A DNA stretch of 58,377 bases from IMG/VR virus record IMGVR_UViG_3300022723_000109, positions 1-58,377 of that record. One strand, 5' to 3'. Origin of the DNA: a virus. Lineage: Duplodnaviria; Caudoviricetes. Each line of letters begins with the position of its first letter. Position 1 is the first letter of the stretch. The notes under the pieces are model-generated. The model was not told the DNA's origin, made no database searches, and saw nothing but the letters and a program-made list of their open reading frames with translations. The position numbers and the translations under genes were made by a program. Below are positions 1,964 through 57,788 of this stretch, piece after piece.

Positions 1964-2166
1964 GGCAGCTCCCCGCGGGCTCGAGCCTGCTTCACCTTGA
2001 GCGTCATGTAGTCCTTGAGACGCTTCTTGAACCACCGGCCCGCGCGACGCGGGTCGAAGCCCTGCAGCATCTTCAGCTCGTCCAGGCTGATCACCATGAC
2101 GAGAGAGCCGGGCTCCTCGCGGAAGCGCTGCTCGATGCGCCGCTCCTTGCTCTCGTCGTCGCTCAC
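1960..2166 (-). CDS. Hypothetical protein
   Basis: Coupled small ORF. Confidence 0.6.
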   Translation of the reverse strand: MSDDESKERRIEQRFREEPGSLVMVISLDELKMLQGFDPRRAGRWFKKRLKDYMTLKVKQARARGELP

Positions 2167-2405
2167 GTCTTCCCTCCGAAGTAGCTGCGGGCGACGCGGT
2201 CGAGAGCGGCGACGTCCCGCAGCTCTTCGAGGACGTCTGCCACCCGGCTGAAGTGGATCGTCTCGGCGCCGTCCGTGTAGAACGCGCTCGCGCCCGGCGT
2301 GACCTTCGAGTGCTCCCGATGCAGGAAGCGGATCTCGATCTGCGCGTCCGGGTCCTTGACGAGGACGTCTTCGACGTGACGCATGAGGGTCCGCAGGTCG
2401 TTCAC
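2163..2405 (-). CDS. Hypothetical protein
   Basis: GTG start with GTGA overlap. Confidence 0.6.
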   Translation of the reverse strand: MNDLRTLMRHVEDVLVKDPDAQIEIRFLHREHSKVTPGASAFYTDGAETIHFSRVADVLEELRDVAALDRVARSYFGGKT

Positions 2406-2764
2406 GATCGGTCCCTCCCGCGCTTCGCCTGCTTGCCCTTCACGCGCCGGAACTGCTCGGCCTTCGGGCAGTCGGAGAAGTGCGAGCTGAAGAACGAGAG
2501 CGTCCCGACGCCGGCGCACTCCGCGCAATGGCCCGGGTTGTCGCCGTGGCAGAGACCGCACGGGACCTTCTTCTCGGTCGCCTTCGAGAGCGGCATCTTG
2601 AACGGCTCGCCGTCGCTCTTGCGCTTGCCGGCGAAGAAGTAGATCTCGGCGTCGCACTTCCTGCAGCGGCAGACTCGCTCGATGCTCGGGTCGAGCTGGA
2701 ACATGCGATCCGGGTAGCCGCTGCGGTCGACCTTCGGCTTCGGGTGTCGTTGGGAGCTGCTCAT
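2402..2764 (-). CDS. Cys-rich zinc-binding phage protein
   Basis: CRKC, CGLC, CAEC and SHFSDCP motifs; ATGA overlap. Confidence 0.65.
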   Translation of the reverse strand: MSSSQRHPKPKVDRSGYPDRMFQLDPSIERVCRCRKCDAEIYFFAGKRKSDGEPFKMPLSKATEKKVPCGLCHGDNPGHCAECAGVGTLSFFSSHFSDCPKAEQFRRVKGKQAKRGRDRS

Positions 2765-3240
2765 GCTCGTCTCTCCTCTTGTGCGCGCGGGTCCTGGTCG
2801 GCGTGGCAGTTGCAAGGCTTGTTCGTCGACCCGCCGATCGCGGGGTCGATGTCGAAGACGTCGCACTCGGGATCGTGCCGGCGCGCCTCTTGCATGCCAG
2901 ACGAGTACGCGAGCTCGAAGAGTCGCCCGTGCCTGCAGTCGCTCGTCAGACCGTCGCCCGGGTCGATGCGATGGTGCCACCGCGCGCCGTCGCCGTGAAC
3001 GCAACGCCAGGCCGGCTCAACTTCGCTCGACTCGCAGAGGTCGCAGACGAGGGGCTCCCTCTCCTCTCGCTCTTCGAGTAGGCCGGCGCGATCGTCGCGC
3101 ACGAGCTCGAACATCGCCTTCGTCTCCTCGGGGTCCGTCGGCGTGTAGCACGACAAGCACCCGAAGCGGTTCGGGAGGAACTCCAACGTCGCTCCCCCGC
3201 AGGACCCGCACGGGCCCCCGAGTCGTCTATGACTCCCCAT
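2761..3240 (-). CDS. Cys-rich hypothetical protein
   Basis: Several CxxC motifs. Confidence 0.55.
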   Translation of the reverse strand: MGSHRRLGGPCGSCGGATLEFLPNRFGCLSCYTPTDPEETKAMFELVRDDRAGLLEEREEREPLVCDLCESSEVEPAWRCVHGDGARWHHRIDPGDGLTSDCRHGRLFELAYSSGMQEARRHDPECDVFDIDPAIGGSTNKPCNCHADQDPRAQEERRA

Positions 3241-3784
3241 CGCTTGCTTCTCCGGATTCTGGAGGGGCCGTCCCCTCGGTCTTCGTTACGCCTTCGGCGG
3301 CCTGCAGGAAGGCGCGGATCTCCGCGGCCTTCTCGGCGGCCGTCGCGTCGGCTTGCTGCTCCGACTCCTGGCCGTAGCGGTCCTTCATCCTGGTCTTCAG
3401 GAGGAAGATCGTCAACGTCTCCGGGAACGTGGTGAGGTACACCGTCCTCCCGCGCTCGTCCTTCACGATCTTCCCGTTGTGGACGAAGGGCCGCACGACC
3501 CCGTCGATGCAGCGGTTCACGGCCGAGGCTTCGAGCAGCTCGTCCGTCTGGAGCTCGATCTCGTCCCACTCCTCGGCGAAGGCCGGGTCGCTCTTCCGCC
3601 GGTCGTACACCGTGGTCCGCCCCTTGTGGACGACCTTGCAGGCCGTCGTGACGCACCGGTGCCGGCGGAACGCCGCGAGCCAGAGCGGAGCCCAATCGAC
3701 GCGCGGCTTGCGCGGGGGTCTCTTTTTGGCGCGTCCGGATTGTGCGCCGCCGCGCGCGCCCGCCTTGCTCGCCTTCTTCGCCAT
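3227..3784 (-). CDS. Terminase small subunit-like HTH protein
   Basis: CVTTACKVVHKGRTTVYDRRKSDPAFAEEWDE...NRCIDGV...LTIFLLKTR matches the pattern of a common TerS family. Confidence 0.7.
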   Translation of the reverse strand: MAKKASKAGARGGAQSGRAKKRPPRKPRVDWAPLWLAAFRRHRCVTTACKVVHKGRTTVYDRRKSDPAFAEEWDEIELQTDELLEASAVNRCIDGVVRPFVHNGKIVKDERGRTVYLTTFPETLTIFLLKTRMKDRYGQESEQQADATAAEKAAEIRAFLQAAEGVTKTEGTAPPESGEASDGES

Positions 3785-3801
3785 CGCGCCCGACACGGTA
3801 C

Positions 3802-4044
3802 CTAATCTGCATCGACATCGAAGAAGACGGTCTCGCCGCAATGCCCGCAGACGCGCGAGTCGCTGTAGAGCTCGGTCGGATCTGGCGGTACGCCGTACTC
3901 CAGAACGGTCCCGCAGGTCGCGCAGCTCTTCGTCGCCACGCCGTTGATCCTGCGCCAGTCGAAGAAGCGGATCGGCTTGCCGCAGTAGGGGCACGGTGCC
4001 GAGTTCCTCGGACGGAAGCTCTTCGAGGACCGGGCGCCACTCAC
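3802..4044 (-). CDS. Zinc-ribbon protein
   Basis: CPYC, CATC, CGHC. Confidence 0.55.
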   Translation of the reverse strand: MSGARSSKSFRPRNSAPCPYCGKPIRFFDWRRINGVATKSCATCGTVLEYGVPPDPTELYSDSRVCGHCGETVFFDVDAD

Positions 4045-5851: not shown

Positions 5852-6457
5852 CTACTCCCCGTCCTCCGGCGAGCTCTGCTCACCGTCGGCGGTCCATTGC
5901 GGGTTGCTCTTCCAGAAGCGGAAGAGCGCGTCCTCGATCTCCTCGGCCTTCTTGGGCCCGATCTTCGGGATGTCGGTGAGCTGCATCTTCGAGAGGTACT
6001 CCTGCAGCGCGCCGACCGTCTGCGTCGGGAAGATGCCGCGCGTGTTCTCCTCGATGAGGCCGGCGAGCGACTTGGAGCCGAGCGCTTCCTCGATCGAGAT
6101 GCCGCGCCAGCCCTCGGGGTCCATGCGCGCGGTGAGCGGGCCGTCCTCGCTGCAGCCGCGGAAGATCGCTTCGAGCCGCTCCTGCGCCTCTTCGAGCTCC
6201 TTCTTCTTCTCGTTCATCTTCGTCCGCGCGGCCTCGAAGGCGTTGCGCTTGTCGCGGACGTCCTGGTACACGTGCAGCGCGCGGTCGAAGGTGTCGACCT
6301 TCCACTTCGGCAGCTCGGCGGGGCTCGAGCCCGCGTCGTCCTGCTTCGTCGTCGCGGCCGCGCCGCCCTTCCCCTCGCCGCCGCCGCTCGCCTTCGTGCG
6401 CTTGCGAGTGGTGCGCTTCGTCGTCTTCTTGCCAGTCGTCTTCGTGGCCTTCGCCAT
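5852..6457 (-). CDS. Putative DNA-binding protein with basic N-terminal tail and HhH motif
   Basis: K/T/R-rich N-terminus, coiled coil, LTDIPKIGPKKAEEI; GGAGGAG ribosome binding site. Confidence 0.6.
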   Translation of the reverse strand: MAKATKTTGKKTTKRTTRKRTKASGGGEGKGGAAATTKQDDAGSSPAELPKWKVDTFDRALHVYQDVRDKRNAFEAARTKMNEKKKELEEAQERLEAIFRGCSEDGPLTARMDPEGWRGISIEEALGSKSLAGLIEENTRGIFPTQTVGALQEYLSKMQLTDIPKIGPKKAEEIEDALFRFWKSNPQWTADGEQSSPEDGE

Positions 6458-7671: not shown

Positions 7672-7929
7672 GTGCAGCTCGCACTCGACACTCTCATCCT
7701 CGTCGCCCTGATCTTCATCTCCTCGGTCGGGCTCGCGATCTTCGGAACGCTCCGCCTGCTCAAGCAGAAGCTCGACCAGGTCATCGACCCGCTCATCGAA
7801 GCGCGCAAGGCTCGAGCCTCCGAGCTCGCGGCCGCGCTGAAGAAGACCGGCGCTCAGCTTCACGATCTCGCGCGACGTGCACGAGAGGAGCAGGAGCGCA
7901 AGAACCGCGAAGACGCTCGGAGGAACTGA
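7672..7929 (+). CDS. Membrane-anchored coiled-coil protein
   Basis: AGGAGGT ribosome binding site; N-terminal hydrophobic helix. Confidence 0.7.
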   Translation: MQLALDTLILVALIFISSVGLAIFGTLRLLKQKLDQVIDPLIEARKARASELAAALKKTGAQLHDLARRAREEQERKNREDARRN

Positions 7930-8581: not shown

Positions 8582-8835
8582 AGCTCAACGACGGCCTCTT
8601 CAGGAAGCAGGTCGGCGAGCGCCAGGTCGACGCGCGCGCCGAGCACCGGATCGCGAGCGGCTTCGACAAGATCTTCGGCTCTCGGCGCAACGGCGATGGG
8701 TGCTACGCCTGGCACGTCGCGCTCTGGCTCTGCGGGTACCGGCAGTCGCGACCGTCCCGGACGATTCACAGCGGGGTCCGGGACCGGGCTCGAGCCGAGG
8801 CTATCGAGCGCCAGGTGCGCGAGCTCGCAGGATAG
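8578..8835 (+). CDS. Hypothetical protein
   Basis: GTGA overlap. Confidence 0.55.
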   Translation: MKLNDGLFRKQVGERQVDARAEHRIASGFDKIFGSRRNGDGCYAWHVALWLCGYRQSRPSRTIHSGVRDRARAEAIERQVRELAG

Positions 8836-8844
8836 ACTCGCCGG

Positions 8845-9875: not shown

Positions 9876-11363
9876 ATGGAAGTCCTTCCGAAAGAGGGCG
9901 GAGCCCTCGCAGAGACCGGTCGCAACGTGACCGGAGACGCCGGCGCGATCGCCGAGCAAGGCGCGCAGCACACGTCGGCCCTCGCGGCTGAGCGCTACCG
10001 AATCGAGGGCATGATCATCGCGGCCGAGCGGAGGCCGCGTGACGAAGAGCGCGCGCGCGACCGCGTGCTCAAGAGCTGCAAGCGCCCGAGGTTCGCCGAG
10101 GGCGCGACGTACGAGTTCCCGCGCGGCGGCTCCGTCGTGACCGGGCCTTCGGTGAACCTCGCCCGCGAGATGGCGCGCGCGTGGGGAAACATCATGACCG
10201 GGTACCGGATCGTCGACATGGACGACGTCTGGATCACGATCGAGGGGTTCGCGTACGACGTCGAGACGAACACCGTGCTCGCCGAGCAATCCCGCTTCAA
10301 GCGCATGGTGCAGCGGAAGCCGAAGGACGCGCGCGGCCGCACGATCAAGGGCGCGCCGGCGACGTGGGTCCGCATCGACGACGAGCGCGACCTCATGGAG
10401 CTCGTCGGCCGCAACGCGGCGAAGCGGCAACGGAACTGCATCTTGAACCTCATGCCCTTCGACATCCGCGAAGAGGCGTTGGAGATCTGCTACAACACCG
10501 CGCTCCAGCTCGCCGACCGCGAGCTCAAGGGCAAGAAGATCGAGGAAGTGATCGAGGATCTCCTCGAAGCGTTCGAGCACTACGGCGTCGAGCGCGACGC
10601 GATCGAGGCGTTCCTGAAGCGCCCGATGGAGGAGATGACCGACGGCGACCTCGTGAAGCTGCGCGGCGTCTACCGCTCGATCAAGGCGGGCGAGGGGAAG
10701 GTCGACGAGTTCTTCGACGTGAAGCCCGCCGAGCCGGCGAAGGCGGGAGTCCGGCCGGAGCAGGTCCATCCCGAAGGCGGCTCGAGCCCGGCCGACGCGA
10801 AGAAGGAAGACGCCGCCGGCGCCCCCGAGGCGGACGGCAAGGACGACGCGCGCAGGATGCCGACGTCGCGCCAGCTCACGAAGCTCCGGAAGGTCGTGCG
10901 CGAGCACGGCACGAAGGAGGCGTTCATCGACTGGCTCGCGGCCGAGTTCGAGATCGAGGTCGACGACGGCACGCTCAACTCCGCATGCGAGGCGATCAAG
11001 GGCAAGCTCGGCGAGGACGACGTCGAGGTCATGATCGCCCGGATCGAGCAGGGCGGCGAGCTGAAGCAGGAAGAGGACGCCGGCGGCGAGGACGAGGTCC
11101 CTACGAGTGGGGGCTCTGCCGAGGAGTCCCCTGCCTCGTCGACGCCCGAACGCACGAGATCCTCCAGCTCTGACGGACCGACCGACGAGCAGATCCGGCG
11201 CATCGTGCAGATGCTCGACGCGCACGAGGTCAAGCGGAAGGATCTCGACGAGCTGCTCGCGAAGCTCTTCCAGGTCGAGAACGAGCGCGAGCTCACCGTC
11301 GAACGGGCGGCCGAGCTGATCACCGGCATCGAGTCCGGCGATATCTGGAGCGCCCTCGACTGA
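9876..11363 (+). CDS. Putative single-strand annealing/recombination protein with long acidic C-terminus
   Basis: YEFPRGG...GPSVNLAREMARAWGNI family motif; adjacent to exonuclease; AGGAG ribosome binding site. Confidence 0.65.
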   Translation: MEVLPKEGGALAETGRNVTGDAGAIAEQGAQHTSALAAERYRIEGMIIAAERRPRDEERARDRVLKSCKRPRFAEGATYEFPRGGSVVTGPSVNLAREMARAWGNIMTGYRIVDMDDVWITIEGFAYDVETNTVLAEQSRFKRMVQRKPKDARGRTIKGAPATWVRIDDERDLMELVGRNAAKRQRNCILNLMPFDIREEALEICYNTALQLADRELKGKKIEEVIEDLLEAFEHYGVERDAIEAFLKRPMEEMTDGDLVKLRGVYRSIKAGEGKVDEFFDVKPAEPAKAGVRPEQVHPEGGSSPADAKKEDAAGAPEADGKDDARRMPTSRQLTKLRKVVREHGTKEAFIDWLAAEFEIEVDDGTLNSACEAIKGKLGEDDVEVMIARIEQGGELKQEEDAGGEDEVPTSGGSAEESPASSTPERTRSSSSDGPTDEQIRRIVQMLDAHEVKRKDLDELLAKLFQVENERELTVERAAELITGIESGDIWSALD

Positions 11364-13056: not shown

Positions 13057-13457
13057 TCTTCTTCCGGAAGCAACCCGAGCCCGAGGAGATGCGCACCGCT
13101 GAGGAGTTCCTCGCGGAGCAGGCCAAGCTCGCCGGCGTCGATTGGAGCGTCGAGCAATGCCGCGCCCTGATCGAGTCCTGCCGTCGCATGGCGGCGCTCG
13201 TGCAGGGTTCGGCGATGGCCTTCGCCGAGGCGGCCCTGCAGATCTCGCGAGCGATGCCCTCGTTCGAGGAGCTTGCCGAGACGCTCGACGAGCTCCGGCG
13301 CATCGGCGTCGACCTGCGGGACGACGACCAGGTCGTCCGGAGAAAGCGCCAGCGCGTCGCCGCGCTCGTGTCGCACGCGAAGATCAAGCAGTACGACGGC
13401 CGGCAGATCCACCGGCCCCGGGCTCGAGCCCGCTATACCCGCGCGAGGAAGCGATGA
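13053..13457 (+). CDS. Hypothetical protein
   Basis: Coupled ORF. Confidence 0.6.
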   Translation: MIFFRKQPEPEEMRTAEEFLAEQAKLAGVDWSVEQCRALIESCRRMAALVQGSAMAFAEAALQISRAMPSFEELAETLDELRRIGVDLRDDDQVVRRKRQRVAALVSHAKIKQYDGRQIHRPRARARYTRARKR

Positions 13458-19223: not shown

Positions 19224-19233
19224 GGCTCGAGCC

Positions 19234-25702: not shown

Positions 25703-25706
25703 CGCG

Positions 25707-26672: not shown

Positions 26673-26681
26673 GCGGTGCCC

Positions 26682-30404: not shown

Positions 30405-30486
30405 CGCTTGATTCCTTGAGGGTGGGCTCGAGCCAGGTTCCCCGGGACGCTACCGAACGCGCCCCGGGGTTCCAAGCTCGCAGGGA

Positions 30487-38917: not shown

Positions 38918-38971
38918 CGGTCAATCCTTGGGTTGTGACCGAGTGCCTTCGTCGGGCTCGAGCCTCAGCCG

Positions 38972-47673: not shown

Positions 47674-47978
47674 GCGCCCGCAAGCGCCAGAAGGCGAAGC
47701 CGCCCGGCCTGGACCGCAAGGCCCTCGTCGGGCGGGTCGTCCGCTTCACCGACGCGAACCGAGGCGGCACGCGCTGCGGCGTCGTTCGCCAGGTCGCACG
47801 CAACTCGAAGACGATCGTCGTGCAGCTCCCGGGAGGTCCGAAGCAGCTCGACGGCTCCACGTTCTCCGCCCGCTGCCGCGGGCAGCGCTGGCGCGTCGAC
47901 GTCGACCAGGTCGCCGGCATCGTGGACAAGCGCGCGACGGGCGGCCTCCGCTCCCTGCCCTGGACGCTTGACTCGTGA
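47670..47978 (+). CDS. Basic hypothetical protein
   Basis: ATGA overlap. Confidence 0.55.
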   Translation: MSARKRQKAKPPGLDRKALVGRVVRFTDANRGGTRCGVVRQVARNSKTIVVQLPGGPKQLDGSTFSARCRGQRWRVDVDQVAGIVDKRATGGLRSLPWTLDS

Positions 47979-48916
47979 GGGTCTTCGCCTCCGGCCTCTC
48001 TCGCCCCGGGAACGCTCGCCCCTTCTTGTGGGCCGGCGCGCCCGTGGGCGCCGTCGCGGGTGAGCTCTCGCCGCGGATGATCGCCGAGCTCGCGCAGTAC
48101 GCCGAAGCGGGCGGCCGCGTCTTCGTCGACTCGGGCGCCTTCTCGACCTGCTCGCGCGGCCTGGCCGTCGACTCCCCCGCGATCCTCGCGACGTACCGCG
48201 AGCTCGGCCGAGCGTGCTCGTGCGCTGAGCGGATCGAGGTCGTCGCGCCGGACGTGGTCGGCGACCAGGCGGCGACCCTGGAGCTCCTGCGGATGCACGC
48301 CGACGACCTGGCGGAGCTCGTCGACGTCGGCCTCACCCTGCTCGTGCCGCTGCAGAAGGGCTCCCTCTCCGGCGCTGATCTCCTGCAGGCGACGCGCGAC
48401 GCGGTCGTCGACCTGCCCTTCGTGCCGGCGGTGCCATTCAACCTACACGCCTGGAGCGACCTCGATGTCGCGGAGTTCGCGAACGCGACCCGCATCGAGC
48501 GCGTGCACCTACTCGGCGCGAGCGGCAAGAAGCTCGCGCGCGTGGCCGAGCTCATCGACGTCGAGGTCGAGCTGCAGGGCGACGCGAACCGGGCTCGAGC
48601 CTGGCTCGGAACGTACCCGACCGCGAAGCTCGGCCGCGTCGGTCGCAAGGTGCGCCGCGTCATGGCCGAGACGCTCGACCTCGCGATCGACGAGTACGGG
48701 CGCGACGTCGACGGCGGAGCGTGGACCGAGGACGGCGCCGAGTGGGATGCGCTCGTGCAGGACGTGAAGGACGAAGCGCTCTGGCTCCTGGCGCTGCAGG
48801 AGCTCGGGGACCTGGCGCTGGCCCGGAGGCTGGCTCCGACCCCCTACCTCGCCCGTGCGGGGATCCTGGAATCTCCTCAAGGGCCGAACGTCGCCAGGCC
48901 GATAGGTGCGGCATGA
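47975..48916 (+). CDS. TGT/DpdA-like guanine transglycosylase-fold protein
   Basis: VFVDSGAFS, APDVVGD, VPLQ, VHLLG motifs. Confidence 0.65.
   Translation: MRVFASGLSRPGNARPFLWAGAPVGAVAGELSPRMIAELAQYAEAGGRVFVDSGAFSTCSRGLAVDSPAILATYRELGRACSCAERIEVVAPDVVGDQAATLELLRMHADDLAELVDVGLTLLVPLQKGSLSGADLLQATRDAVVDLPFVPAVPFNLHAWSDLDVAEFANATRIERVHLLGASGKKLARVAELIDVEVELQGDANRARAWLGTYPTAKLGRVGRKVRRVMAETLDLAIDEYGRDVDGGAWTEDGAEWDALVQDVKDEALWLLALQELGDLALARRLAPTPYLARAGILESPQGPNVARPIGAA
48877..48905 (+). promoter_or_regulatory. TCAAG-N17-CCGATAG promoter-like motif
   Basis: 7 nt to ATG 48913. Confidence 0.75.
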
Positions 48917-49251
48917 AGCAATCGACCACCACGACCGAGATCCTCGAAGCCCTGGAGATCCTGAAGCGCCAAGCGCAGCGCACCGTCTGCGCGGGCGGAG
49001 TCATCGAGCGCCCGGAGGCGGAGCGGATGGCCGAGTTCGAGGCGGAGGTCGTCCGCAGGGGCGACGAGCGCCGCCTGCTCGGCCTGCGCGACGAGTACGG
49101 CGTCCCGATCTACGACGCCGCCGACGTCGACGAGATCGTGCGGATCCAGCCGCGCCCGGGCCTCTCCTCGCGCGACTGCGATCTCTGCCGGTCGCCGCTG
49201 AGCCACGAAGAGGCAGACCGCGGGTCGCTCTGCGATTCCTGCGAAGACTAG
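48913..49251 (+). CDS. Hypothetical protein with C-terminal zinc finger
   Basis: CDLC...CDSC. Confidence 0.65.
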   Translation: MKQSTTTTEILEALEILKRQAQRTVCAGGVIERPEAERMAEFEAEVVRRGDERRLLGLRDEYGVPIYDAADVDEIVRIQPRPGLSSRDCDLCRSPLSHEEADRGSLCDSCED

Positions 49252-49252
49252 C

Positions 49253-49281
49253 TCAAGGTCGGAGCATCGCCACGCCGATAG
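49253..49281 (+). promoter_or_regulatory. TCAAG-N17-CCGATAG promoter-like motif
   Basis: 8 nt to ATG 49290. Confidence 0.75.
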
Positions 49282-49289
49282 GGACCACC

Positions 49290-49592
49290 ATGAAGCAAGA
49301 GCAAGCACTCGCGCTCGCGCGCGACCTCAAGGCCCGCACCACCGTCCAGCGCCGGCGCGTCGAAGACGCTGAGCGCGAGCGTCTCGCCGCGCGGCCGGAC
49401 GCCTCGAAGCTCCGCCAGGTCGACGAGCGTCTCGTGACGCTGCGCTTCGAGCTCGCCGAGACCCTTCTCTCTCTGAGCATGGCGCGCCGCGACGCCGGCG
49501 ACCACGAGGGCGCGCTCGACGCGGCTCGTCTCTTCTCCGAGCAGGAGCATCTCGCGCGCACCACGCGCGACAACCTGGCGAGGGTCGTCTGA
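49290..49592 (+). CDS. Helical hypothetical protein
   Basis: Follows the promoter motif; coupled to the methyltransferase. Confidence 0.65.
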   Translation: MKQEQALALARDLKARTTVQRRRVEDAERERLAARPDASKLRQVDERLVTLRFELAETLLSLSMARRDAGDHEGALDAARLFSEQEHLARTTRDNLARVV

Positions 49593-50536
49593 TGCTGCGC
49601 GTCGTCGACTACTTCGCCGGCTTGGGAGGATCCTCTCTCGGAGCCGAGCGCGCCGGCATGAAGGTCGTGCTCTGCGCGAATCACTACGGGCCCGCGGTCG
49701 ACACGCTGCGCCACCACCACCCGAGCGCGCAGTTCGTGACGCAGGATCTCCGGCAGTACGATCACGCGCTCGCCCCCGAGCACGACGTCTTCATCGCCTC
49801 GCCCGAGTGCAAGGGGCACGCGGACGCCGGCAACGGCGCGCGCGGTCGGTGGGGCCTGGACTACTCGTACCACGACGCGAGCCGCGCGACGGCTTGGGCC
49901 GTGGTCGACGCGATCGAGGCGAACCGCCCGCGCTACGCGGTCATCGAGAACGTCGTGCGCTTCCGCGAGTGGTCGAAGTTCGATCTCTGGACCGAGTCCA
50001 TCCGCCGCGACGGGTACGACCTCAAGGTCGAGGACATCAACGCGGCCGACCTCGGCGTCCCGCAGGACCGGCTCCGCATGTTCGTCGTCGCCTGGCGCCA
50101 CGGCGAGCAGGAGCCCGACATCAGCGTCGCCGCTCGACCTGAAGCCGAGTGGACGCCGGCGAGCTCGATCGTCGACGTCGAGGGCGGCGACCGGTGGGCG
50201 CCCGTGAGCTCGAAGAGCGCGGCCGTGCAGTCGCGCGTCGCGAACGGTCGGCGCAACGTCGGCGAGGTCTTCATCTCGCAGCACGTCACGAATCACCCGG
50301 GACGCTCGATCGACCGGCCGCTGCCGACGATCACGACCCGGGATCAGCTCTGCATCGTGAACGGGGACCTCATGCGGCCGCTCTCCTGGCAGGAGTACCT
50401 CGCGGCGATGGGCCTTCCGTCCGACTACCACGTCGCCACGAAGAGCAAGAAGAAGCTCGTCCTCATGGCCGGGAACGCCGTGTGCCCGCCCGTGTCCGAG
50501 CACGTTCTCACCCGAGTCGCGGAGGCCGCAGCATGA
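49592..50536 (+). CDS. C5 cytosine DNA methyltransferase
   Basis: Motif I FAGLGG, IV SPEC, VI ENV, VIII Q.R.R, X GNAV. Confidence 0.93.
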   Translation: MLRVVDYFAGLGGSSLGAERAGMKVVLCANHYGPAVDTLRHHHPSAQFVTQDLRQYDHALAPEHDVFIASPECKGHADAGNGARGRWGLDYSYHDASRATAWAVVDAIEANRPRYAVIENVVRFREWSKFDLWTESIRRDGYDLKVEDINAADLGVPQDRLRMFVVAWRHGEQEPDISVAARPEAEWTPASSIVDVEGGDRWAPVSSKSAAVQSRVANGRRNVGEVFISQHVTNHPGRSIDRPLPTITTRDQLCIVNGDLMRPLSWQEYLAAMGLPSDYHVATKSKKKLVLMAGNAVCPPVSEHVLTRVAEAAA

Positions 50537-51767: not shown

Positions 51768-51798
51768 GGCCGGGCTCGAGCCCGCGCCCGAGATTCTC

Positions 51799-53785: not shown

Positions 53786-54204
53786 AGGGTCTGCAGCGCA
53801 TCGAGCGCCCCGGCTGGCGCTCCTACTTCTGCCGCGTGTACCACGCCGGCGACGTGCTGACGAAGAGCTTCGCCGATCGCGAGCATGGCGGCAGGGCTCA
53901 AGCCCGGGCCGCGGCGGTCGCGTGGCTTCGAGAGACTCGCTCCGAGCTCGGCCAGGTCGAGCGGCGCGGCCGCGTGGTCGCATCGAAGGCCGACGGGACC
54001 GACGAGCTCGTCGGGGTCCACGTGCACGAGCGCACCACGCGCGCCGGCAGTCTCTCGCGCGCTTGGGTCGCCACGTGGGGGGAGACGCGGGGCGGCAAGC
54101 GCCGGCAGAAACGGAAGAGCTTCTCCGTCCGAGTGCACGGCGAAGACGGGGCGCGCGAGCTCGCGCGAGCTCAGCGCCGCGAGTGGGAGCGCGGGGCCGC
54201 TTGA
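53782..54204 (+). CDS. Tandem AP2-domain DNA-binding protein
   Basis: KSFADREHGG..QA..AA and GV...WVATW...KSFSVRVHGE.GA.ELA...R. Confidence 0.75.
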   Translation: MKGLQRIERPGWRSYFCRVYHAGDVLTKSFADREHGGRAQARAAAVAWLRETRSELGQVERRGRVVASKADGTDELVGVHVHERTTRAGSLSRAWVATWGETRGGKRRQKRKSFSVRVHGEDGARELARAQRREWERGAA

Positions 54205-55264: not shown

Positions 55265-55749
55265 CCGCGCCACTTCCCGCGGTACCGACCGTCGATGAAG
55301 CGGCGCGCATGGTCGAGCGCGTCGAGCTCGTGTCGGTCGACGTCTCGGCCGAGGATCGCGCGGCGCACGTGATCCGGCTGCACCTTGAGCCAGGCCGTGT
55401 ACGTGGAGTCGCTCGCGACGCGCTTCGCCTCGTGGCGAGGCAGCACCGGCGGGAGCTCGAACTTCGTGCGGCACGTCTCGATCGTCTTCACGTCTTCCGG
55501 GTACACGATCGGCACCCCGCAGCACGTGGGCTCGCGGAACTCCGCGCGACACGGGTACGGGTACAGGAACTCGCCGCGCGTCTCGCCTGCAGGCCAGCAA
55601 GGACCCTTCACGATTCCGCCGCGCATGTAGCGGTCCGCCTCGTCGACGGTCACGTACGGTTCGGTGCTCGGGCTCGAGCCCGCCTTGCGTCCGATGCCGA
55701 CGGCCGCGGCCGCGCTGGCGAGGAGCTTGAAGAAGCTGCGTCGGTTCAA
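55261..55749 (-). CDS. Twin-arginine (Tat) signal protein
   Basis: NRRSFFKLLASAAAAVGIG; TTGA overlap. Confidence 0.65.
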   Translation of the reverse strand: MNRRSFFKLLASAAAAVGIGRKAGSSPSTEPYVTVDEADRYMRGGIVKGPCWPAGETRGEFLYPYPCRAEFREPTCCGVPIVYPEDVKTIETCRTKFELPPVLPRHEAKRVASDSTYTAWLKVQPDHVRRAILGRDVDRHELDALDHARRFIDGRYRGKWRG

Positions 55750-55999: not shown

Positions 56000-56025
56000 A
56001 CCCCGGGGGACCGGGGATGACGGCG

Positions 56026-56631
56026 CTACTGCGGCTGCGGCTGCGGGGGGAAGACCTCTTGCAGCTCTTCGAGCCGCTTCTTGTGCTTCCGCGCGATCGC
56101 ACCGGATCCGCTTCCGGATCCCCAAGGCGTGCAGACGCATTGCCAGTTGCCCCACACGTCGCACCATCCGGTGCACACGGCGTTCTCCTCCGAACACGCC
56201 GACGACTGGCAGGAGTAGAGCGGCGGGGGTGCGTTCGGGTCGAGGTCGAAGCGCGGCGAGTTCCCGAACACGGTGCCGGCCGTGACGTTGTCCGCGAAGG
56301 ACCAGGTCGACGCGACCGACGGGTTCGTGCTGACGGGTCCGACCGGCTGCATCAGGTTCGTCAGCCCGACGAACTCGTACACGTACTGCGCGCGTCCGCC
56401 GGCGAGCTCGTGCACCACGCGCGAGCCGTGGAGCTCCGCTTGCGGTCCGGTGACGACGAGGTAGTGCGTGAACTCGATCGGCTGCAGCGAGAGGTACGGG
56501 ACGGTCTCGCCGCCCTCGCCCCCCCACAAGGGCAGCGTGCCGGAGTCGTCGTCCTGCGGCGAGGCGATCGCCACGGTCGAGCAGAGCATCAGAGCGAGCA
56601 GAGACGAGAGTGTGCGAAGTAGGGTCTTCAT
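56026..56631 (-). CDS. Secreted protein with C-terminal six-Cys domain
   Basis: Signal peptide ending AIA; CQSSAC...CTGWC...CVC. Confidence 0.65.
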   Translation of the reverse strand: MKTLLRTLSSLLALMLCSTVAIASPQDDDSGTLPLWGGEGGETVPYLSLQPIEFTHYLVVTGPQAELHGSRVVHELAGGRAQYVYEFVGLTNLMQPVGPVSTNPSVASTWSFADNVTAGTVFGNSPRFDLDPNAPPPLYSCQSSACSEENAVCTGWCDVWGNWQCVCTPWGSGSGSGAIARKHKKRLEELQEVFPPQPQPQ

Positions 56632-56666
56632 GAATCTCTAGTGGCTTGGCGAGCGGTTCGCTCGCG

Positions 56667-56903
56667 TCAGCGGCGCCGAGGATCTTCCGGATCGGCGTCG
56701 CGATGCAAAGGGTCCGGAACCCGTTCTTCTATCCCCTGCGGTGCTGGCGCGTGCAGGGGTTGCTCGACGGGGTGCGTGAGGAAGCGCTCGTGCGCGTCGG
56801 CCGTGACGATCAGCACGACGATCAGACCGACGAGCGTCGCGTAGGCGAGCAGGATCACGACCACGAGGGCCGGGCTCCATCGGCTGCAGTTGCGCTCCGG
56901 CAT
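56667..56903 (-). CDS. Small membrane protein
   Basis: Long hydrophobic helix; coupled. Confidence 0.55.
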   Translation of the reverse strand: MPERNCSRWSPALVVVILLAYATLVGLIVVLIVTADAHERFLTHPVEQPLHAPAPQGIEERVPDPLHRDADPEDPRRR

Positions 56904-57079
56904 CAGCTCCCCCCCTCGACGTCCTGGATCGTCGGCAAGATCTCCAGGAGACGCGAGGCGATGAGCCTCTCGGCGACGTCCTGGAGCGAGTGTCCGTAGA
57001 GCCCGGTTTCGAGCAAGCGCTGCAGGGCGCGCTCTTCCTGCGGGCTCAGCTCGATCGTCAGCCGCTCACGCTCGGGCAT
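56903..57079 (-). CDS. Ribbon-helix-helix regulator-like protein
   Basis: RLTIELSPQEERALQRLLETGLYGHSLQDVAERLI; below the ORF-track cutoff. Confidence 0.6.
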   Translation of the reverse strand: MPERERLTIELSPQEERALQRLLETGLYGHSLQDVAERLIASRLLEILPTIQDVEGGS

Positions 57080-57788
57080 CGCCCTCGCCCTTCGTCGGCG
57101 TCACGACGAACGAGAAGCTCGCGTCGCATCGCGGGTTGTCGCACGTGACGCCGAGCAGCCGGAGCTCGGCCGCATCGGCGGGCATGGTCTCCTCGATCAG
57201 CACGGTCCCGGCCTTGCACGCCTCGCAGTCTCCGCGCAGGAAGAACCGGTGCAGCGGGCGCACCGACGTCCGCACCGTCACCGGGCTCGAGCCCGGAGTC
57301 AGCGGAACGCCGCCGCGCGCCTGGACGTGCTCCGCGACGTAGCGCATGCGCGAGATCTCGCCCGGCCTTCTGTCGCTCGGCTTGCCGAGCCGCAGCTCGC
57401 AGAGCTTCATGACGAGCCAGGTGCACTCCTCACCCTTGTCCTCGTCGCGCCAGCTCGCACGCGCGTATCGCTCGGTGAGCTCGCCGGCGAGATCCCATTC
57501 CGGATCCGTCGCCTCGGCCGCGGTGACGATGTCGGGCAGCGTCTCGTCGATCGCGACGAGCGCGAGGGAGAGCATGCGATCGAGCTTCGCCGCCTCGACG
57601 GTCCCGAAGCGCTTCGCCCACAAGCGCCCGACGTCGGCGATCTGCGCCTCACACTCCTTGCGCACGACCTCGACGCAGGGACGGACGAGCGGGTCGCCGC
57701 CTTCCCGTGCGATGAGCTGGAGGTACTCCAGCACCTTCCGGAACGCAGCGACCCGCCGATCGTGGGTCCACTCGTCAGAGCCGCTCAT
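57066..57788 (-). CDS. Hypothetical protein with C-terminal zinc ribbon
   Basis: CEAC...CDNPRC; ATGA overlap. Confidence 0.65.
   Translation of the reverse strand: MSGSDEWTHDRRVAAFRKVLEYLQLIAREGGDPLVRPCVEVVRKECEAQIADVGRLWAKRFGTVEAAKLDRMLSLALVAIDETLPDIVTAAEATDPEWDLAGELTERYARASWRDEDKGEECTWLVMKLCELRLGKPSDRRPGEISRMRYVAEHVQARGGVPLTPGSSPVTVRTSVRPLHRFFLRGDCEACKAGTVLIEETMPADAAELRLLGVTCDNPRCDASFSFVVTPTKGEGDARA

What the first reader, a model, noticed from the sequence alone, without database searches (positions are those of the whole stretch)
1978..57293. Genome-wide, evenly spaced palindrome (CG)GGCTCGAGCC(CG), while CTCGAG is otherwise absent
Seen: a manual scan found 22 CTCGAG sites. All are GCTCGAGC, 20 are GGCTCGAGCC and 6 are the full 14-mer CGGGCTCGAGCCCG. 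CTCGAA, CTCGAC and CTCGAT are very common, and Leu-Glu is elsewhere written CTC GAA or CTG GAG. Gaps around the circle run 978-4653 bp (mean 2647, hand-calculated CV about 0.35 versus about 1 for random placement). Copies occur in all three frames (GLEP, GSSP, and ARA using otherwise uncommon GCT CGA codons), inside terL, portal and tape measure, and between genes, so selection acts on the DNA. A one-mismatch copy (GGGCTCAAGCCCG, 53894) bisects one of the largest gaps. Inference: a lattice of protein-binding or modification sites, for example a self-mark that licenses the DNA against a scanning host defence, a HIP1/matS-like organiser, or packaging/ejection sites, combined with counter-selection of bare CTCGAG. 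I know of no described phage system combining these properties.
Basis: partly seen in the sequence, partly recalled or inferred. Interest (0 to 1): 0.92.

Follow-up and report, generated by a model that had tools for sequence, protein, structure and literature searches.

The report
Evenly spaced XhoI-site palindromes in phages
A metagenomic phage has removed every CTCGAG from its genome except 22 copies embedded in one longer palindrome and spaced about every 2.6 kb, and the same regular CTCGAG spacing recurs in three otherwise unrelated phages that share a two-gene DNA-methyltransferase module, which points to an undescribed DNA-marking system.

Summary
The window is a whole 58.2-kb phage genome. 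It has 22 CTCGAG sites against 62-96 expected. All 22 are GCTCGAGC, 20 are GGCTCGAGCC (0.9 expected) and 6 are the full 14-mer. Circular gap CV is 0.35, and 0 of 200,000 random placements were as regular. Selection acts on the DNA. Of 92 Leu-Glu pairs only 3 are written CTCGAG. Ten sites use the rare codons GCT CGA. The portal and terL sites rest on amino-acid changes at conserved positions.

I surveyed 44 phage genomes or large fragments. CTCGAG is regularly spaced (P 1e-5 to 6e-4) in exactly the four that carry a C5 DNA methyltransferase within 1.5 kb of an uncharacterised TIM-barrel protein (TGT/aldolase-like fold), and in none of the other 40. One of them, G404, shares only three detectable proteins with the window yet uses the same GGCTCGAGCC motif.

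Best reading (about 0.3): these are cognate sites of this modification module, kept as short-range cis-acting marks, while unprotected CTCGAG is purged by XhoI-type restriction. Main rival: survivors of a purge by a two-site-dependent restriction enzyme. A closest-pair thinning simulation reproduces the spacing but not the motif enrichment. Function, host and the chemistry of any modification are unknown. No modification was observed.

The parts
1978..1987 (.). motif copy GGCTCGAGCC (14-mer context CGGGCTCGAGCCTG), inside a 68-aa ORF 1960-2166(-), read GCT CGA GCC
6322..6331 (.). motif copy (GGGGCTCGAGCCCG), in ORF 5852-6457(-), read GGC TCG AGC
7809..7818 (.). motif copy (AAGGCTCGAGCCTC), in ORF 7672-7929(+), read GCT CGA GCC
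8787..8796 (.). motif copy (CGGGCTCGAGCCGA), in ORF 8578-8835(+)
10779..10788 (.). motif copy (GCGGCTCGAGCCCG), in the phrog_3657 gene 9876-11363(+)
13421..13430 (.). motif copy, full 14-mer CGGGCTCGAGCCCG, in ORF 13053-13457(+)
15853..15862 (.). motif copy (GCGGCTCGAGCCCG), between divergent genes 15254-15466(-) and 15963-16190(+)
17902..17911 (.). motif copy, full 14-mer, in Sipho_Gp157-like gene 17528-18217(+)
19224..19233 (.). motif copy (GAGGCTCGAGCCCT), exactly between convergent genes 18762-19223(+) and 19234-19752(-)
22818..22827 (.). motif copy, full 14-mer, near the start of NlpC/P60 gene 22373-22843(-), read CTC GAG
27471..27480 (.). motif copy (CCGGCTCGAGCCCC), in tape measure gene 26682-29645(-)
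30425..30434 (.). motif copy (TGGGCTCGAGCCAG), intergenic between 30000-30404(-) and tail tube gene 30487-31734(-)
33434..33443 (.). variant copy AGCTCGAGCC (one flank mismatch), in long ORF 32905-36192(-)
35662..35671 (.). variant copy GGCTCGAGCG (one flank mismatch), in long ORF 32905-36192(-)
38955..38964 (.). motif copy (CGGGCTCGAGCCTC), intergenic between major head gene 37910-38917(-) and scaffold gene 38972-39856(-)
41581..41590 (.). motif copy (GGGGCTCGAGCCCG), in portal gene 41082-42680(-). It encodes LGLEPL where 14 homologues have LGL[Q/R/K/A]P, with no indel
44272..44281 (.). motif copy (GAGGCTCGAGCCGA), in unknown 382-aa gene 43888-45036(-)
46040..46049 (.). motif copy (TCGGCTCGAGCCGG), in terL 45065-46417(-). 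It encodes PARAEG where the 45%-identical terL of MW202657 has PERAEG
48592..48601 (.). motif copy (CGGGCTCGAGCCTG), inside the TIM-barrel gene itself
51773..51782 (.). motif copy, full 14-mer, intergenic 8 nt after gene 51090-51767(+)
55671..55680 (.). motif copy, full 14-mer, in ORF 55261-55749(-)
57284..57293 (.). motif copy, full 14-mer, in ORF 57066-57788(-)
47975..48916 (+).
   Evidence: AF2 model pLDDT 81, eight beta/alpha units. Foldseek top hits are class II aldolases and tRNA-guanine transglycosylase, E about 4e-6, TM 0.42-0.50. Atlas leads: 'T4 beta protein family' 0.96, and a cluster where 17% of members carry DpdA. No Pfam, NCBIfam or PADLOC family. No tblastn hit in 50,697 GenBank phage records. 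87 relatives in IMG/VR stretches
48913..49592 (+). two small ORFs (112 aa and 100 aa) between the TIM-barrel gene and the methyltransferase; no family found
49592..50536 (+). C5 cytosine DNA methyltransferase, 314 aa; candidate writer at the motif
   Evidence: PF00145 2e-33. TIGR00675 above cut-off. Best PADLOC hit DrmMII 8.5e-36. PC and ENV motifs invariant in 8 relatives
53895..53904 (.). one-mismatch copy GGCTCAAGCC inside the 3898-bp gap; not more than chance would give
58231..58377 (+). terminal direct repeat of bases 1-147 (one mismatch): circular or terminally redundant genome, unit 58,230 bp

Best explanation
The 22 palindromes are the cognate target sites of a phage-borne two-gene DNA-modification module: the C5 cytosine methyltransferase (49592-50536) working with the neighbouring TIM-barrel protein (47975-48916).

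The phage keeps, and has created by point substitution, one (C)GGGCTCGAGCCC(G) site roughly every 2.6 kb. Each site acts in cis over a limited distance, about 2 kb to either side. Extra sites are costly, and that cost plus the coverage need produces even spacing. The most likely use of such short-range marks is to stop or disarm a DNA-translocating host nuclease or defence complex, so they would be a sequence-encoded self-licence. CTCGAG in any other context is not protected and has been purged by XhoI-type restriction.

Shown: the pattern, its significance, DNA-level selection for the motif and against bare CTCGAG, and the co-occurrence with the gene pair in four phages.

Inferred: that the module acts on these sites, that the sites are modified, what the modification is, and what reads it.
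For: 1. Positive selection on the DNA word.
- GGCTCGAGCC occurs 20 times against 0.9 expected. CTCGAG-rich phages of similar GC hold only 0-3 copies per 45-56 kb.
- Ten copies are written GCT CGA GCC, although GCT is 7% of Ala codons and CGA 9% of Arg codons. By hand from those tables, about 0.04 such triplets are expected.
- The portal copy needs E where 14 of 14 homologues have Q, R, K or A, in a conserved block with no indel. The terL copy has A where the relative has E.

2. Purge of other CTCGAG. Of 92 Leu-Glu pairs, 3 are CTCGAG, 41 CTCGAA and 36 CTGGAG. About 53 CTCGAG are expected by hand from CTC 69% and GAG 84%.

3. Regularity goes beyond a minimum-distance rule.

4. Recurrence.
- G404 is a complete 52.6-kb phage sharing only 3 detectable proteins with the window: methyltransferase 42%, TIM-barrel 31.5%, phrog_3657 27%.
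- It has 9 CTCGAG sites. Six are GGCTCGAGCC (0.05 expected) and all 9 carry at least one GGCTC half. Circular CV 0.24, P 7.7e-5.
- G405 has 14 sites with CV 0.34, P 2e-5 to 3e-5.

5. Association (linear test). CTCGAG is regular in all 4 genomes with the methyltransferase and TIM-barrel genes within 1.5 kb: P 1e-5, 1.9e-4, 1.4e-4 and 6e-4. It is regular in 0 of 40 others. Hand-computed Fisher P is about 7e-6, but the grouping was defined post hoc.

6. In G404 the two genes overlap by 4 bases.

7. Background.
- 1910 hexamer-by-locus tests gave 0 with P<1e-3.
- Depleted hexamers in general are not regular; median P 0.52-0.55.
- No other of 210 sources shows one-context exclusivity.

8. The pattern is not tied to virion genes.
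Against: - No modification, binding or cleavage was observed. The only public run holding the phage is kept as contigs.
- The methyltransferase's specificity is unknown.
- Homologues of equal identity (38-44%) sit in phages with many ordinary CTCGAG sites or none. TIM-barrel homologues of equal or higher identity sit in phages with 0, 2, 108, 120 or 132 CTCGAG. Only the combination tracks the pattern, on n = 4, with the grouping defined after seeing the data.
- The extended motif is not universal. G405 uses mostly CCTCGAGG (10 of 14), the ordinary coding context, and G406 shows no consensus.
- GAGCTC is also regular in G405 and G406, and in G415, where neither gene was found in a 50%-complete fragment.
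- Deterministic closest-pair thinning reproduces the CVs without any positive function.
- Shared host rather than shared module could explain the recurrence. The window and G404 lack the same hexamers: ACGCGT, AGGCCT, CAGCTG, TTCGAA, AAGCTT.
- The host is unknown.
Confidence: 0.3

Rival explanations
1. The sites are survivors of a distance-dependent purge, with no positive function for the spacing. A CTCGAG-specific restriction activity that needs two sites in cis (by looping or translocation) removes closely spaced sites first. The activity could be the host's, or the TIM-barrel/methyltransferase pair acting as a phage-borne restriction-modification module. What is left is a regular, hard-core-like pattern. 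The phage methyltransferase gives partial protection, so selection stalls before all sites are gone.
For: - Closest-pair thinning from the expected to the observed number of sites gives CV 0.25-0.47, bracketing the observed 0.24-0.35 in all five cases simulated.
- In G405 and G406 the surviving sites have ordinary or mixed contexts.
- A second hexamer, GAGCTC, behaves the same way in G405, G406 and G415.
- The window is heavily shaped by restriction avoidance. ACGCGT, ATCGAT, AGGCCT, AAGCTT, CAGCTG and CCATGG are absent and TTCGAA occurs once, against 3-35 expected each.
- Recalled from memory, not read here: EcoRII sites in T3 and T7 DNA are refractory because they lie far apart.
Against: - It cannot produce 20 GGCTCGAGCC where 0.9-4 are expected, nor the rare-codon GCT CGA GCC copies, nor the same decamer in G404.
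- A single synonymous change removes a site, so survivors should not acquire four-base symmetric flanks.
- Thinning with a realistic looping law (rate proportional to d^-1.5) gives CV 0.51-0.62; the observed values are lower, P 0.005-0.03.
- Depleted hexamers in general show no regularity.
Confidence: 0.25
2. The palindromes are binding sites of a dimeric DNA-binding protein, of phage or host, unrelated to the methyltransferase module. Candidates are a genome-wide roadblock or silencer of the stoperator kind, a ParB/Noc/MatP-like organiser, or a loading site for a sliding or spreading protein. CTCGAG avoidance would then be a separate, ordinary restriction effect.
For: - A 14-bp perfect palindrome with 7-bp half-sites, with conservation decaying outward (G 44/44, G 42/44, G 28/44, C 28/44, C 24/44 of half-sites), is the typical footprint of a dimeric regulator.
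- Five of 22 copies are intergenic against 8% non-coding DNA.
- Even spacing fits any short-range cis-acting function.
Against: - No candidate reader is shared by the window and G404 apart from the three proteins named.
- No ParB, integrase or repressor was found among the 60 window proteins scanned with Pfam. Roughly 39 small ORFs were not scanned.
- It does not explain why the core of the site is exactly the purged hexamer in several phages.
- 17 of 22 copies are inside genes.
Confidence: 0.15
3. The sites are Chi-like or recombination or replication hot-spots. They would be recognised by a host helicase-nuclease, or cut or nicked to feed the phage's own exonuclease/annealase pair. A palindrome works in both orientations.
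For: - Both the window and G404 encode an exonuclease next to the phrog_3657 protein: PD-(D/E)XK at 8700-9836, and YqaJ in G404 directly upstream of the module.
- In G415 the asymmetric AGAGCTCG copies largely alternate in orientation, +-+-+-+++?+-.
- Spacing of a few kb resembles that of Chi (recalled).
Against: - Known Chi sites are 5-8 nt, asymmetric and co-oriented (recalled). None is a 10-14-bp palindrome.
- Half-words such as GGGCTCGA are not enriched outside the palindromes.
- It gives no reason for the purge of bare CTCGAG.
- G405 and G406 lack detectable phrog_3657.
Confidence: 0.08
4. The pattern is an artefact or designed DNA: assembly or base-calling error at modified sites, linker insertion, or a synthetic genome with engineered restriction sites.
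For: Removal of an enzyme's sites combined with regular spacing is what a designer would do. A search listing turned up a designed yeast region with regularly spaced restriction sites (PMC6047084, listing only).
Against: - Copies replace native sequence without indels inside conserved protein blocks.
- The identical TIM-barrel protein is on record on a second contig of 58,260 bp.
- The pattern recurs in independent IMG/VR contigs.
- Many common cloning sites are abundant: GAGCTC 170, GTCGAC 108, CTGCAG 50, GGATCC 25.
- Base-calling errors could remove sites but not create 20 decamers.
Confidence: 0.02

Closest known systems
Restriction-site (palindrome) avoidance in phage genomes
   Same: CTCGAG is 3-4 fold under-represented and seven other 6-bp palindromes are absent or nearly so. 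Pseudomonas phage SS2019XI shows the ordinary form: 0 CTCGAG against 29 expected.
   Different: Ordinary avoidance removes sites regardless of context and says nothing about spacing. Here 22 sites are kept, all in one symmetric context, 20-fold over-represented and regularly spaced.
Highly iterated or evenly spaced genomic words in bacteria: HIP1 of cyanobacteria, uptake sequences (USS/DUS) of Haemophilus and Neisseria (recalled, not read here)
   Same: A short over-represented word, inside genes in several frames, more evenly spaced than chance. HIP1 is a palindrome that contains methyltransferase target sites.
   Different: Those are host-genome features at about 1 per kb. The core is not otherwise purged. 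No such density of GGGCTCGAGCCC was seen in 401 sampled Alphaproteobacteria; the maximum was 23 per 5.1 Mb. Here it is a phage property that travels with a phage gene pair.
Phage 7-deazaguanine DNA modification by DpdA (CAjan, iggy)
   Same: A TGT-fold enzyme encoded by siphophages whose head genes resemble this phage's (iggy major head protein 41% identical). The modification is site-specific: GA and GGC in CAjan (PMC7544227, abstract and passages of two sections read). The window motif contains GGC and GA on each strand.
   Different: Known DpdA enzymes modify a large share of G at 2-3-nt motifs, not 22 sites. The window protein matches no DpdA or TGT model (0 of 30 family members; profile against PDB). 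It has no tblastn hit in GenBank phages. No preQ0 synthesis gene was seen among 60 proteins scanned.
Stoperators of Cluster A mycobacteriophages and dispersed operators of P1 (recalled)
   Same: Dozens of copies of one 13-17-bp site spread over a whole phage genome and read by one protein.
   Different: Those sites are asymmetric, intergenic and oriented with transcription, and they serve lysogeny. Here they are palindromic, 17 of 22 lie in genes, and no integrase or repressor was found.
Refractory, widely spaced sites of two-site restriction enzymes (EcoRII in T3/T7; type IIE/IIF enzymes) (recalled)
   Same: Sites that survive because they are far from each other. The minimum gap here is 978 bp, and the thinning simulation fits the CV.
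   Different: That effect predicts ordinary flanks and no over-representation of a longer word.
Self-marks that halt scanning nucleases: Chi with RecBCD/AddAB, phosphorothioate with DndFGH (recalled)
   Same: Cis-acting marks with a limited range along the DNA, which is what even spacing suggests.
   Different: Chi is asymmetric and is a host word. Phosphorothioate marks are not encoded by a longer exclusive motif. Neither has been reported as a regular lattice in a phage, as far as my searches went.

Membership tests
Restriction-site avoidance | Hexamer palindrome under-represented against Markov and codon-aware expectation | tested here: met
   22 observed against 82-96 (orders 1-4) and 62.5 +/- 5.3 (codon shuffle). 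Only 3 of 92 Leu-Glu pairs are written CTCGAG.
Restriction-site avoidance | Remaining sites are a random residue in ordinary contexts and positions | tested here: not met
   22 of 22 are GCTCGAGC and 20 of 22 are GGCTCGAGCC. CV 0.35 with 0 of 200,000 random placements as low. No other of 210 sources shows such exclusivity.
Host-type iterated word (HIP1/USS-like) | The same word at high density in the host chromosome | tested here: inconclusive
   Not found in 401 sampled Alphaproteobacteria; maximum 23 copies per 5.1 Mb. The host is unknown and only one class was sampled.
Host-type iterated word (HIP1/USS-like) | Over-represented and more evenly spaced than chance | tested here: met
C5 cytosine DNA methyltransferase (49592-50536) | Match to PF00145 / TIGR00675 above the curated cut-off | tested here: met
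   PF00145 116.6 bits against cut-off 22. TIGR00675 104.3 against 100.65.
C5 cytosine DNA methyltransferase (49592-50536) | Catalytic Pro-Cys and Glu-Asn-Val motifs present | tested here: met
   P71, C73, E119, N120 and V121 are invariant in 8 aligned relatives. Assigning these as the catalytic motifs is recalled knowledge.
C5 cytosine DNA methyltransferase (49592-50536) | Target sequence is CTCGAG or the longer palindrome | not testable with these tools
   Only indirect evidence: co-occurrence in 4 genomes. Homologues of similar identity occur in phages without the pattern.
DpdA / tRNA-guanine transglycosylase (47975-48916) | Match to the DpdA (PF23859) or TGT Pfam model | tested here: not met
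   0 of 30 family members match at E<=1. A profile of the family against PDB sequences finds no TGT.
DpdA / tRNA-guanine transglycosylase (47975-48916) | TIM-barrel fold closest to TGT | tested here: inconclusive
   TGT chains are among the top Foldseek hits (E 4e-6, TM 0.42-0.50), but class II aldolases score equally. The Atlas lead is a cluster with DpdA on 17% of members.
DpdA / tRNA-guanine transglycosylase (47975-48916) | preQ0 synthesis genes (FolE, QueD, QueE, QueC) in the same genome, as in most DpdA phages | tested here: not met
   None among 60 window proteins scanned with Pfam. About 39 small ORFs were not scanned. The host could supply preQ0.
Stoperator-type dispersed operators | Asymmetric sites, intergenic, oriented with transcription; temperate phage with repressor | tested here: not met
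   The sites are perfect palindromes and 17 of 22 lie in coding sequence. No integrase or repressor family was found in the scanned proteins.
Chi sites | Short asymmetric word with orientation bias | tested here: not met
   The word is a palindrome. Half-words are not enriched outside it.
Intrinsic terminator hairpins | GC-rich stem followed by a T run, between genes | tested here: not met
   There is no conserved base beyond position -5 and no T run in the 22 contexts. 17 of 22 lie inside genes. By contrast, the GTGGCAACGTTGCCAC copies of G402/G403 do have A/T-run flanks.

The most novel reading that the evidence does not exclude
A new kind of phage DNA-marking system. A C5 methyltransferase and a TGT-fold TIM-barrel enzyme of an undescribed family together write a (hyper)modification at a rare palindrome. 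The phage genome has evolved to present that palindrome as a regular lattice, one per 2.6-5.8 kb. The lattice would be a sequence-encoded self-licence that halts a DNA-scanning host defence, in effect a phage-owned, modification-based equivalent of Chi. The bare core hexamer is purged because it is lethal when unmarked.
Probability: 0.2. Interest if true: 0.95.

Novelty: categorically new. Interest (0 to 1): 0.86.

Why it matters
If the sites are functional marks, this would be the first case where a virus arranges the positions of a modification or recognition site along its whole genome. The spacing itself would then report the working range of whatever reads the marks.

It would give a function to a phage TIM-barrel family that has no match in any curated library or in GenBank phages, and a partner role to a widespread methyltransferase family.

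If the thinning rival is right instead, the result is still useful. Regular spacing of residual sites would be a genomic signature of restriction enzymes that need two sites, readable from sequence alone.

Either way the gap-CV test is simple, was well calibrated here (0 of 1910 background tests below 1e-3) and can be run on every complete viral genome.

Tried and rejected
Relatives of the phage
- Megablast of 25 kb against GenBank phages found nothing.
- The best portal relatives are 42-44% identical, so positional conservation of sites could not be tested.
- The nearest structural relative, MW202657, has no such palindrome.

Motif scans
- The major head protein in genome contigs gave 4 distant loci and no host.
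- Run search: one metagenome holder, kept as contigs, and no RNA holder listed. Read laying was not used, because contigs cannot show modification.

Second motif
- CGACCWGGTCG looked like a parallel case. CCWGG has 213 sites in mixed contexts with CV 1.03, so I read it as a codon effect and used it as a control.

Tests of association that failed
- Phages with the nearest methyltransferases (Acica, SS2019XI, PseuP_224; four IMG/VR loci; 79 metagenome loci) show no pattern.
- The TIM-barrel gene alone shows no association: 0 of 18 further genomes.
- No conserved neighbour of the TIM-barrel gene was found in 80 loci. The apparent clusters were antisense shadow ORFs.
- L348 looked like a fifth case but is identical to G404.
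- The GTGGCAACGTTGCCAC copies in G402/G403 are probably terminators, a different thing.

Other analyses
- No lattice periodicity.
- Insertion of a 12-bp element is rejected, because there is no indel in portal or terL.

Literature
- 'GGCTCGAGCC' occurs only in cloning primers among the 20 listed of 144 papers.
- 'bacteriophage genome / palindrom / evenly' gave 13 listed papers and 'phage / restriction sites / regularly spaced / genome' gave 15 listed, none describing this.
- These three searches are the basis for saying I found nothing in print. Subscription journals and supplements were not searchable.

No earlier findings, no contig look-ups and no test of a TIM-barrel/methyltransferase complex were obtained.

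Full report
WHAT THE WINDOW IS

The window is the whole assembly. Its last 147 bases repeat its first 147 with one mismatch. It is therefore a circular or terminally redundant phage genome of 58,230 bp, with 68.5% G+C.

A self-trained codon model gives 99 genes covering 92% of the sequence. The minus-strand block from 19.2 to 46.6 kb holds these genes:
- terL (45065-46417)
- portal (41082-42680)
- head morphogenesis, scaffold and major head protein (37910-38917)
- tail tube
- tape measure (26682-29645)
- a GTA-like distal tail set: DUF2460, phiJL001 Gp84/BR0599, NlpC/P60, Phage-tail_3 plus Rcc01698_C, and DUF2793

The rest encodes small early genes. These include a PD-(D/E)XK exonuclease, a phrog_3657 protein, a C5 DNA methyltransferase (49592-50536) and an outer-membrane beta-barrel protein.

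Host and relatives:
- The tail protein's tblastn hits are mostly phages of Caulobacter, Rhodobacter and Brevundimonas. A Gram-negative, probably alphaproteobacterial host is likely but not shown.
- The DNA comes from a metagenome.
- There is no close relative. Megablast found nothing and the best portal relatives are 42-44% identical.
- No tRNA gene was found.

There are 22 CTCGAG sites. All are GCTCGAGC, 20 are GGCTCGAGCC and 6 are CGGGCTCGAGCCCG.

Pooling the 44 half-sites shows conservation that decays outward. It runs G 44/44, G 42/44, G 28/44, C 28/44, C 24/44, and nothing is conserved beyond that.

Expected counts:
- Base composition alone predicts 20 CTCGAG, which is why the raw count looks innocent.
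- Markov orders 1-4 predict 82-96. This is because CTC and GAG are the preferred Leu and Glu codons.
- Synonymous-codon shuffling predicts 62.5 +/- 5.3.
- The decamer is expected 0.9 times and the 12-mer 0.04 times, against 20 and 8 observed.

Spacing:
- The circular gap CV is 0.352. None of 200,000 random placements came below 0.399.
- Even a hard-core null using the observed minimum gap leaves P = 0.0025 for the CV and 0.011 for the largest gap. Short and long gaps are both missing. The fitted gamma shape is about 7.5.
- There is no fixed period.

SELECTION IS ON THE DNA, IN BOTH DIRECTIONS

Against the bare hexamer:
- Of 92 Leu-Glu pairs, 41 are written CTCGAA and 36 CTGGAG. Only 3 are CTCGAG, and those three are motif copies.
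- Yet CTC is 69% of Leu codons and GAG 84% of Glu codons. By hand, about 53 CTCGAG pairs would be expected.

For the long word:
- Ten copies are read GCT CGA GCC, using an Ala codon of 7% and an Arg codon of 9% usage. By hand, about 17 Ala-Arg-Ala triplets are expected in the proteome, and about 0.04 of them in this spelling.
- Four copies are read GGC TCG AGC, three are read CTC GAG, and five lie between genes.
- In the portal the copy sits in the conserved block LGLQPL. There is no indel, and Glu occurs there in none of 14 homologues.
- In terL it encodes PARAEG where the 45%-identical relative has PERAEG.

The copies were therefore made by point substitutions, some of them amino-acid changes. 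They were not inserted.

OTHER PALINDROMES

ACGCGT, ATCGAT, AGGCCT, AAGCTT, CAGCTG and CCATGG are absent and TTCGAA occurs once. Expectations are 3-35 depending on the word and the model. The genome is strongly shaped by restriction avoidance. CTCGAG is the only purged hexamer with a retained, structured residue.

A second over-represented word, CGACCWGGTCG, is not comparable. CCWGG has 213 sites in mixed contexts with CV 1.03.

THE LEAD THAT OPENED THE COMPARISON

The 313-aa protein at 47975-48916 lies two small ORFs upstream of the methyltransferase. What was found about it:
- It has no Pfam, PHROG, NCBIfam or PADLOC family.
- It has no tblastn match in 50,697 GenBank phage records.
- With 29 metagenomic homologues it folds as a confident eight-stranded TIM barrel.
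- Its best PDB matches are class II aldolases and tRNA-guanine transglycosylases, at equal scores.
- The protein atlas points to a 'T4 beta protein family' cluster and to a cluster in which 17% of members carry the DpdA domain.

Fold-level resemblance is all that can be claimed. Membership of DpdA/TGT was tested and not met.

Scanning IMG/VR with the family alignment returned 80 loci.

A SECOND AND THIRD CASE

Five of the 80 loci also had a homologue of the methyltransferase.

G404 (the contig of L171):
- It is a complete 52,628-bp genome with terminal repeats.
- It has 9 CTCGAG sites at 918, 5853, 14488, 20515, 26607, 32006, 37380, 41193 and 48695.
- Six are GGCTCGAGCC against 0.05 expected. 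All nine carry at least one GGCTC half.
- The circular CV is 0.24, P = 7.7e-5.
- By tblastn it shares only three proteins with the window: the methyltransferase (42%), the TIM-barrel protein (31.5%) and phrog_3657 (27%).
- In G404 the TIM-barrel ORF and the methyltransferase overlap by four bases.
- It lacks the same hexamers as the window (AAGCTT, ACGCGT, AGGCCT, CAGCTG, TTCGAA), and also GAGCTC, GCATGC and GGGCCC.

G405 (the contig of L205):
- It is complete, 46,321 bp, and the two genes lie about 350 bp apart.
- It has 14 CTCGAG with CV 0.34 (P 2e-5 to 3e-5) and 10 GAGCTC with CV 0.27 (P 6e-5 to 8e-5).
- The CTCGAG context there is mostly CCTCGAGG (10 of 14), which is the ordinary coding context.

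G406:
- It is a 75-kb fragment with the two genes divergent and 1.3 kb apart.
- It has 18 GAGCTC (P 5.6e-4) and 21 CTCGAG (P 6e-4) by the linear test, with no consensus flank.

CONTROLS AND ASSOCIATION

- On loci of at least 10 kb, 1910 hexamer-by-locus tests gave 0 with P<1e-3 and 13 with P<1e-2. So the test is calibrated. The 68 CTCGAG tests had a minimum P of 0.02.
- No other of 210 sources shows a hexamer confined to one symmetric context.
- I then restored 28 genomes or large fragments with the TIM-barrel gene and 16 without. I tested every hexamer palindrome with 7-45 sites.
- CTCGAG reached P<1e-3 in exactly four: the window (1e-5), G404 (1.9e-4), G405 (1.4e-4) and G406 (6e-4). These are the four in which the methyltransferase and TIM-barrel genes lie within 1.5 kb.
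- It did so in none of the other 40. By hand, Fisher's exact P is about 7e-6. The grouping was defined after the first cases were seen, several records are fragments, and phylogenetic independence was not assessed.

Neither gene alone predicts the pattern:
- TIM-barrel-only genomes have 0, 0, 2, 120 or 132 CTCGAG.
- G407 has both genes but 7 kb apart, and has 108 CTCGAG.
- Methyltransferase-only phages have 0-5 sites, or 16-40 per 14-21 kb, in ordinary contexts.
- Of 80 metagenome loci with this methyltransferase family, only one had the TIM-barrel gene beside it. That locus is identical to G404.

Depleted hexamers in general are not regular; median P is 0.52-0.55.

Three other signals remain unexplained:
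- GAGCTC in the control fragment G415. It has 12 sites against 53 expected, P 2.6e-4. Eleven of the 12 are AGAGCTCG, in largely alternating orientation.
- AGCGCT in G409, P 7e-4.
- GAGCTC in G420, P 4e-3.

WHAT THE PATTERN IS NOT

- Not tied to the virion. MW202657 shares terL, portal and the tail set with the window at 29-48% identity. It has 44 ordinary CTCGAG sites in the 50,000 of 56,278 bases examined and no such palindrome. G404 shares no detectable structural gene with the window.
- Not a host-genome word in the sample searched. Among 401 Alphaproteobacteria the 12-mer reaches at most 23 copies per 5.1 Mb, against 8 in this 58-kb phage. That is a sample of one class, and the host is unknown.
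- Not terminators. No T run is conserved and 17 of 22 copies lie in genes.
- Not an insertion element.

HOW IT MOST LIKELY WORKS

Two facts need explaining together: a word that is created and kept, and a core that is purged everywhere else.

The first needs a positive function for the long palindrome in the window and G404. The second fits XhoI-type restriction, the same force that removed seven other palindromes.

Even spacing is what is expected when each site serves only its neighbourhood and each site has a cost. The fewest sites that leave no stretch uncovered will be regularly spaced. Here no base is more than about 2.3 kb from a site.

The only phage-encoded candidates common to the four genomes are the methyltransferase and the TIM-barrel protein. 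I therefore commit to this reading: the palindromes are their cognate sites and carry a modification that acts in cis over about 2 kb, most plausibly to arrest a DNA-translocating host nuclease or defence. I put this at about 0.3.

Shown: the statistics, the DNA-level selection and the co-occurrence.
Inferred: THE MAIN RIVAL

Starting from the expected number of random sites and repeatedly deleting one member of the closest pair reproduces the observed CVs. The simulation gives 0.25-0.47 against 0.24-0.35 observed.

A restriction activity that needs two sites in cis could thus generate regular spacing with no positive function. The ordinary contexts in G405 and G406, and the parallel behaviour of GAGCTC, speak for it.

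It fails on three counts:
- the 20-fold excess of the decamer
- the rare-codon spellings
- the reappearance of the same decamer in G404

A softer, looping-like distance law gives CVs that are too high, 0.51-0.62.

The two readings are not exclusive. The module may itself be a restriction-modification-like pair, and both a purge and a retained function may act. I give the pure thinning reading 0.25.

Lesser rivals are a DNA-binding protein unrelated to the module (0.15), a Chi-like or recombination site (0.08), and an artefact or designed DNA (0.02).

COMPARISON WITH WHAT IS KNOWN

The nearest known things each share one property:
- Palindrome avoidance: depletion, but not retention or order.
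- HIP1 and uptake sequences: over-representation and even spacing, but in host genomes and without a purged core.
- DpdA-type deazaguanine modification: a TGT-fold phage enzyme with sequence specificity, GA and GGC in CAjan (PMC7544227; abstract and passages of two sections read). It acts at thousands of sites, and family membership is not met here.
- Stoperators: dispersed sites for one reader, but asymmetric and intergenic.
- EcoRII-refractory sites: distance effects, but ordinary contexts.
- Chi, or phosphorothioate with DndFGH: cis-acting self-marks.

Apart from the CAjan paper, and the iggy abstract seen in a listing (PMC10484667), these comparisons rest on recall.

Three literature searches found no description of a phage genome with these combined properties.

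VERDICT

It is linked to a specific, uncharacterised gene pair. The mechanism is open. I rate it as highly interesting, and as lying outside known kinds. The caveat is that a distance-dependent restriction purge, a variant of a known effect, explains part of it.

Noticed in passing
window 1-147 and 58231-58377: A 147-bp terminal direct repeat with one mismatch near base 21. The record is a circular or terminally redundant genome of 58,230 bp. G404 and G405 each have exact 144-bp repeats.
   Followed up: partly
whole window: Six 6-bp palindromes are wholly absent (ACGCGT, ATCGAT, AGGCCT, AAGCTT, CAGCTG, CCATGG) and TTCGAA occurs once, against 3-35 expected. G404 lacks five of the same words, which hints at a shared host or restriction repertoire.
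   Followed up: partly
whole window: CGACCAGGTC (19 copies) and CGACCTGGTC (16 copies) against 1.1 expected each. CCWGG itself is abundant (213 sites) and randomly spaced. Probably the codon run GAC-CWG-GTC.
   Followed up: partly
window 32905-36192 (-): One uninterrupted 1095-aa ORF in the head-tail connector region. Its only recognisable part is a head-closure (Hc1) domain at residues 778-844. It could be a fusion, a missed start or a large polyvalent protein. It holds the two variant motif copies.
   Followed up: no
window 51866-52441 (+): A phage-encoded outer-membrane beta-barrel protein (PF13505, 2.4e-8), which implies a Gram-negative host and possibly superinfection exclusion.
   Followed up: no
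window 49592-50536 (+): The methyltransferase's best defence-library match is DrmMII, the C5 methylase of class 2 DISARM (8.5e-36, full length). The family is widespread: at least 460 metagenome stretches.
   Followed up: partly
window 37910-38917 (-): The major head protein is 41% identical to that of Pseudomonas phage Iggy and relatives, phages known for DpdA-made dPreQ0 DNA. The window has no recognisable DpdA or preQ0 genes.
   Followed up: partly
G415 (contig of L018), whole 42,236-bp fragment: GAGCTC occurs 12 times against 53 expected, with gaps of 2.1-6.1 kb (P 2.6e-4). Eleven of 12 are the asymmetric AGAGCTCG, in largely alternating orientation (+-+-+-+++?+-). Neither the TIM-barrel nor the methyltransferase gene is in this 50%-complete fragment.
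   Followed up: partly
G405 (contig of L205) 2758-45658: A second regularly spaced hexamer, GAGCTC (10 sites, CV 0.27), interleaved with the 14 CTCGAG sites. Joint CV 0.45, P 4e-5.
   Followed up: partly
G409 (contig of L140): AGCGCT has 18 sites with CV 0.47 (P 7e-4) in a TIM-barrel-bearing genome without the methyltransferase. CTCGAG occurs only 2 times there against 25 expected.
   Followed up: no
G402 and G403 (contigs of L198, L199): Seven and four copies of the 12-16-bp palindrome (GT)GGCAACGTTGCC(AC), flanked by A and T runs. They are probably bidirectional terminators. The first four in G402 lie about 10 kb apart.
   Followed up: partly
G404 25686-31021: Gene order is YqaJ exonuclease, phrog_3657 protein, TIM-barrel protein (502-aa ORF with an extra C-terminal part), then methyltransferase. 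The recombination pair sits directly beside the module here but 37 kb away in the window.
   Followed up: partly
window 53782-54204 (+): Weak AP2-domain match (4.6e-4, below Pfam's cut-off). No link to the motif was found or tested.
   Followed up: no
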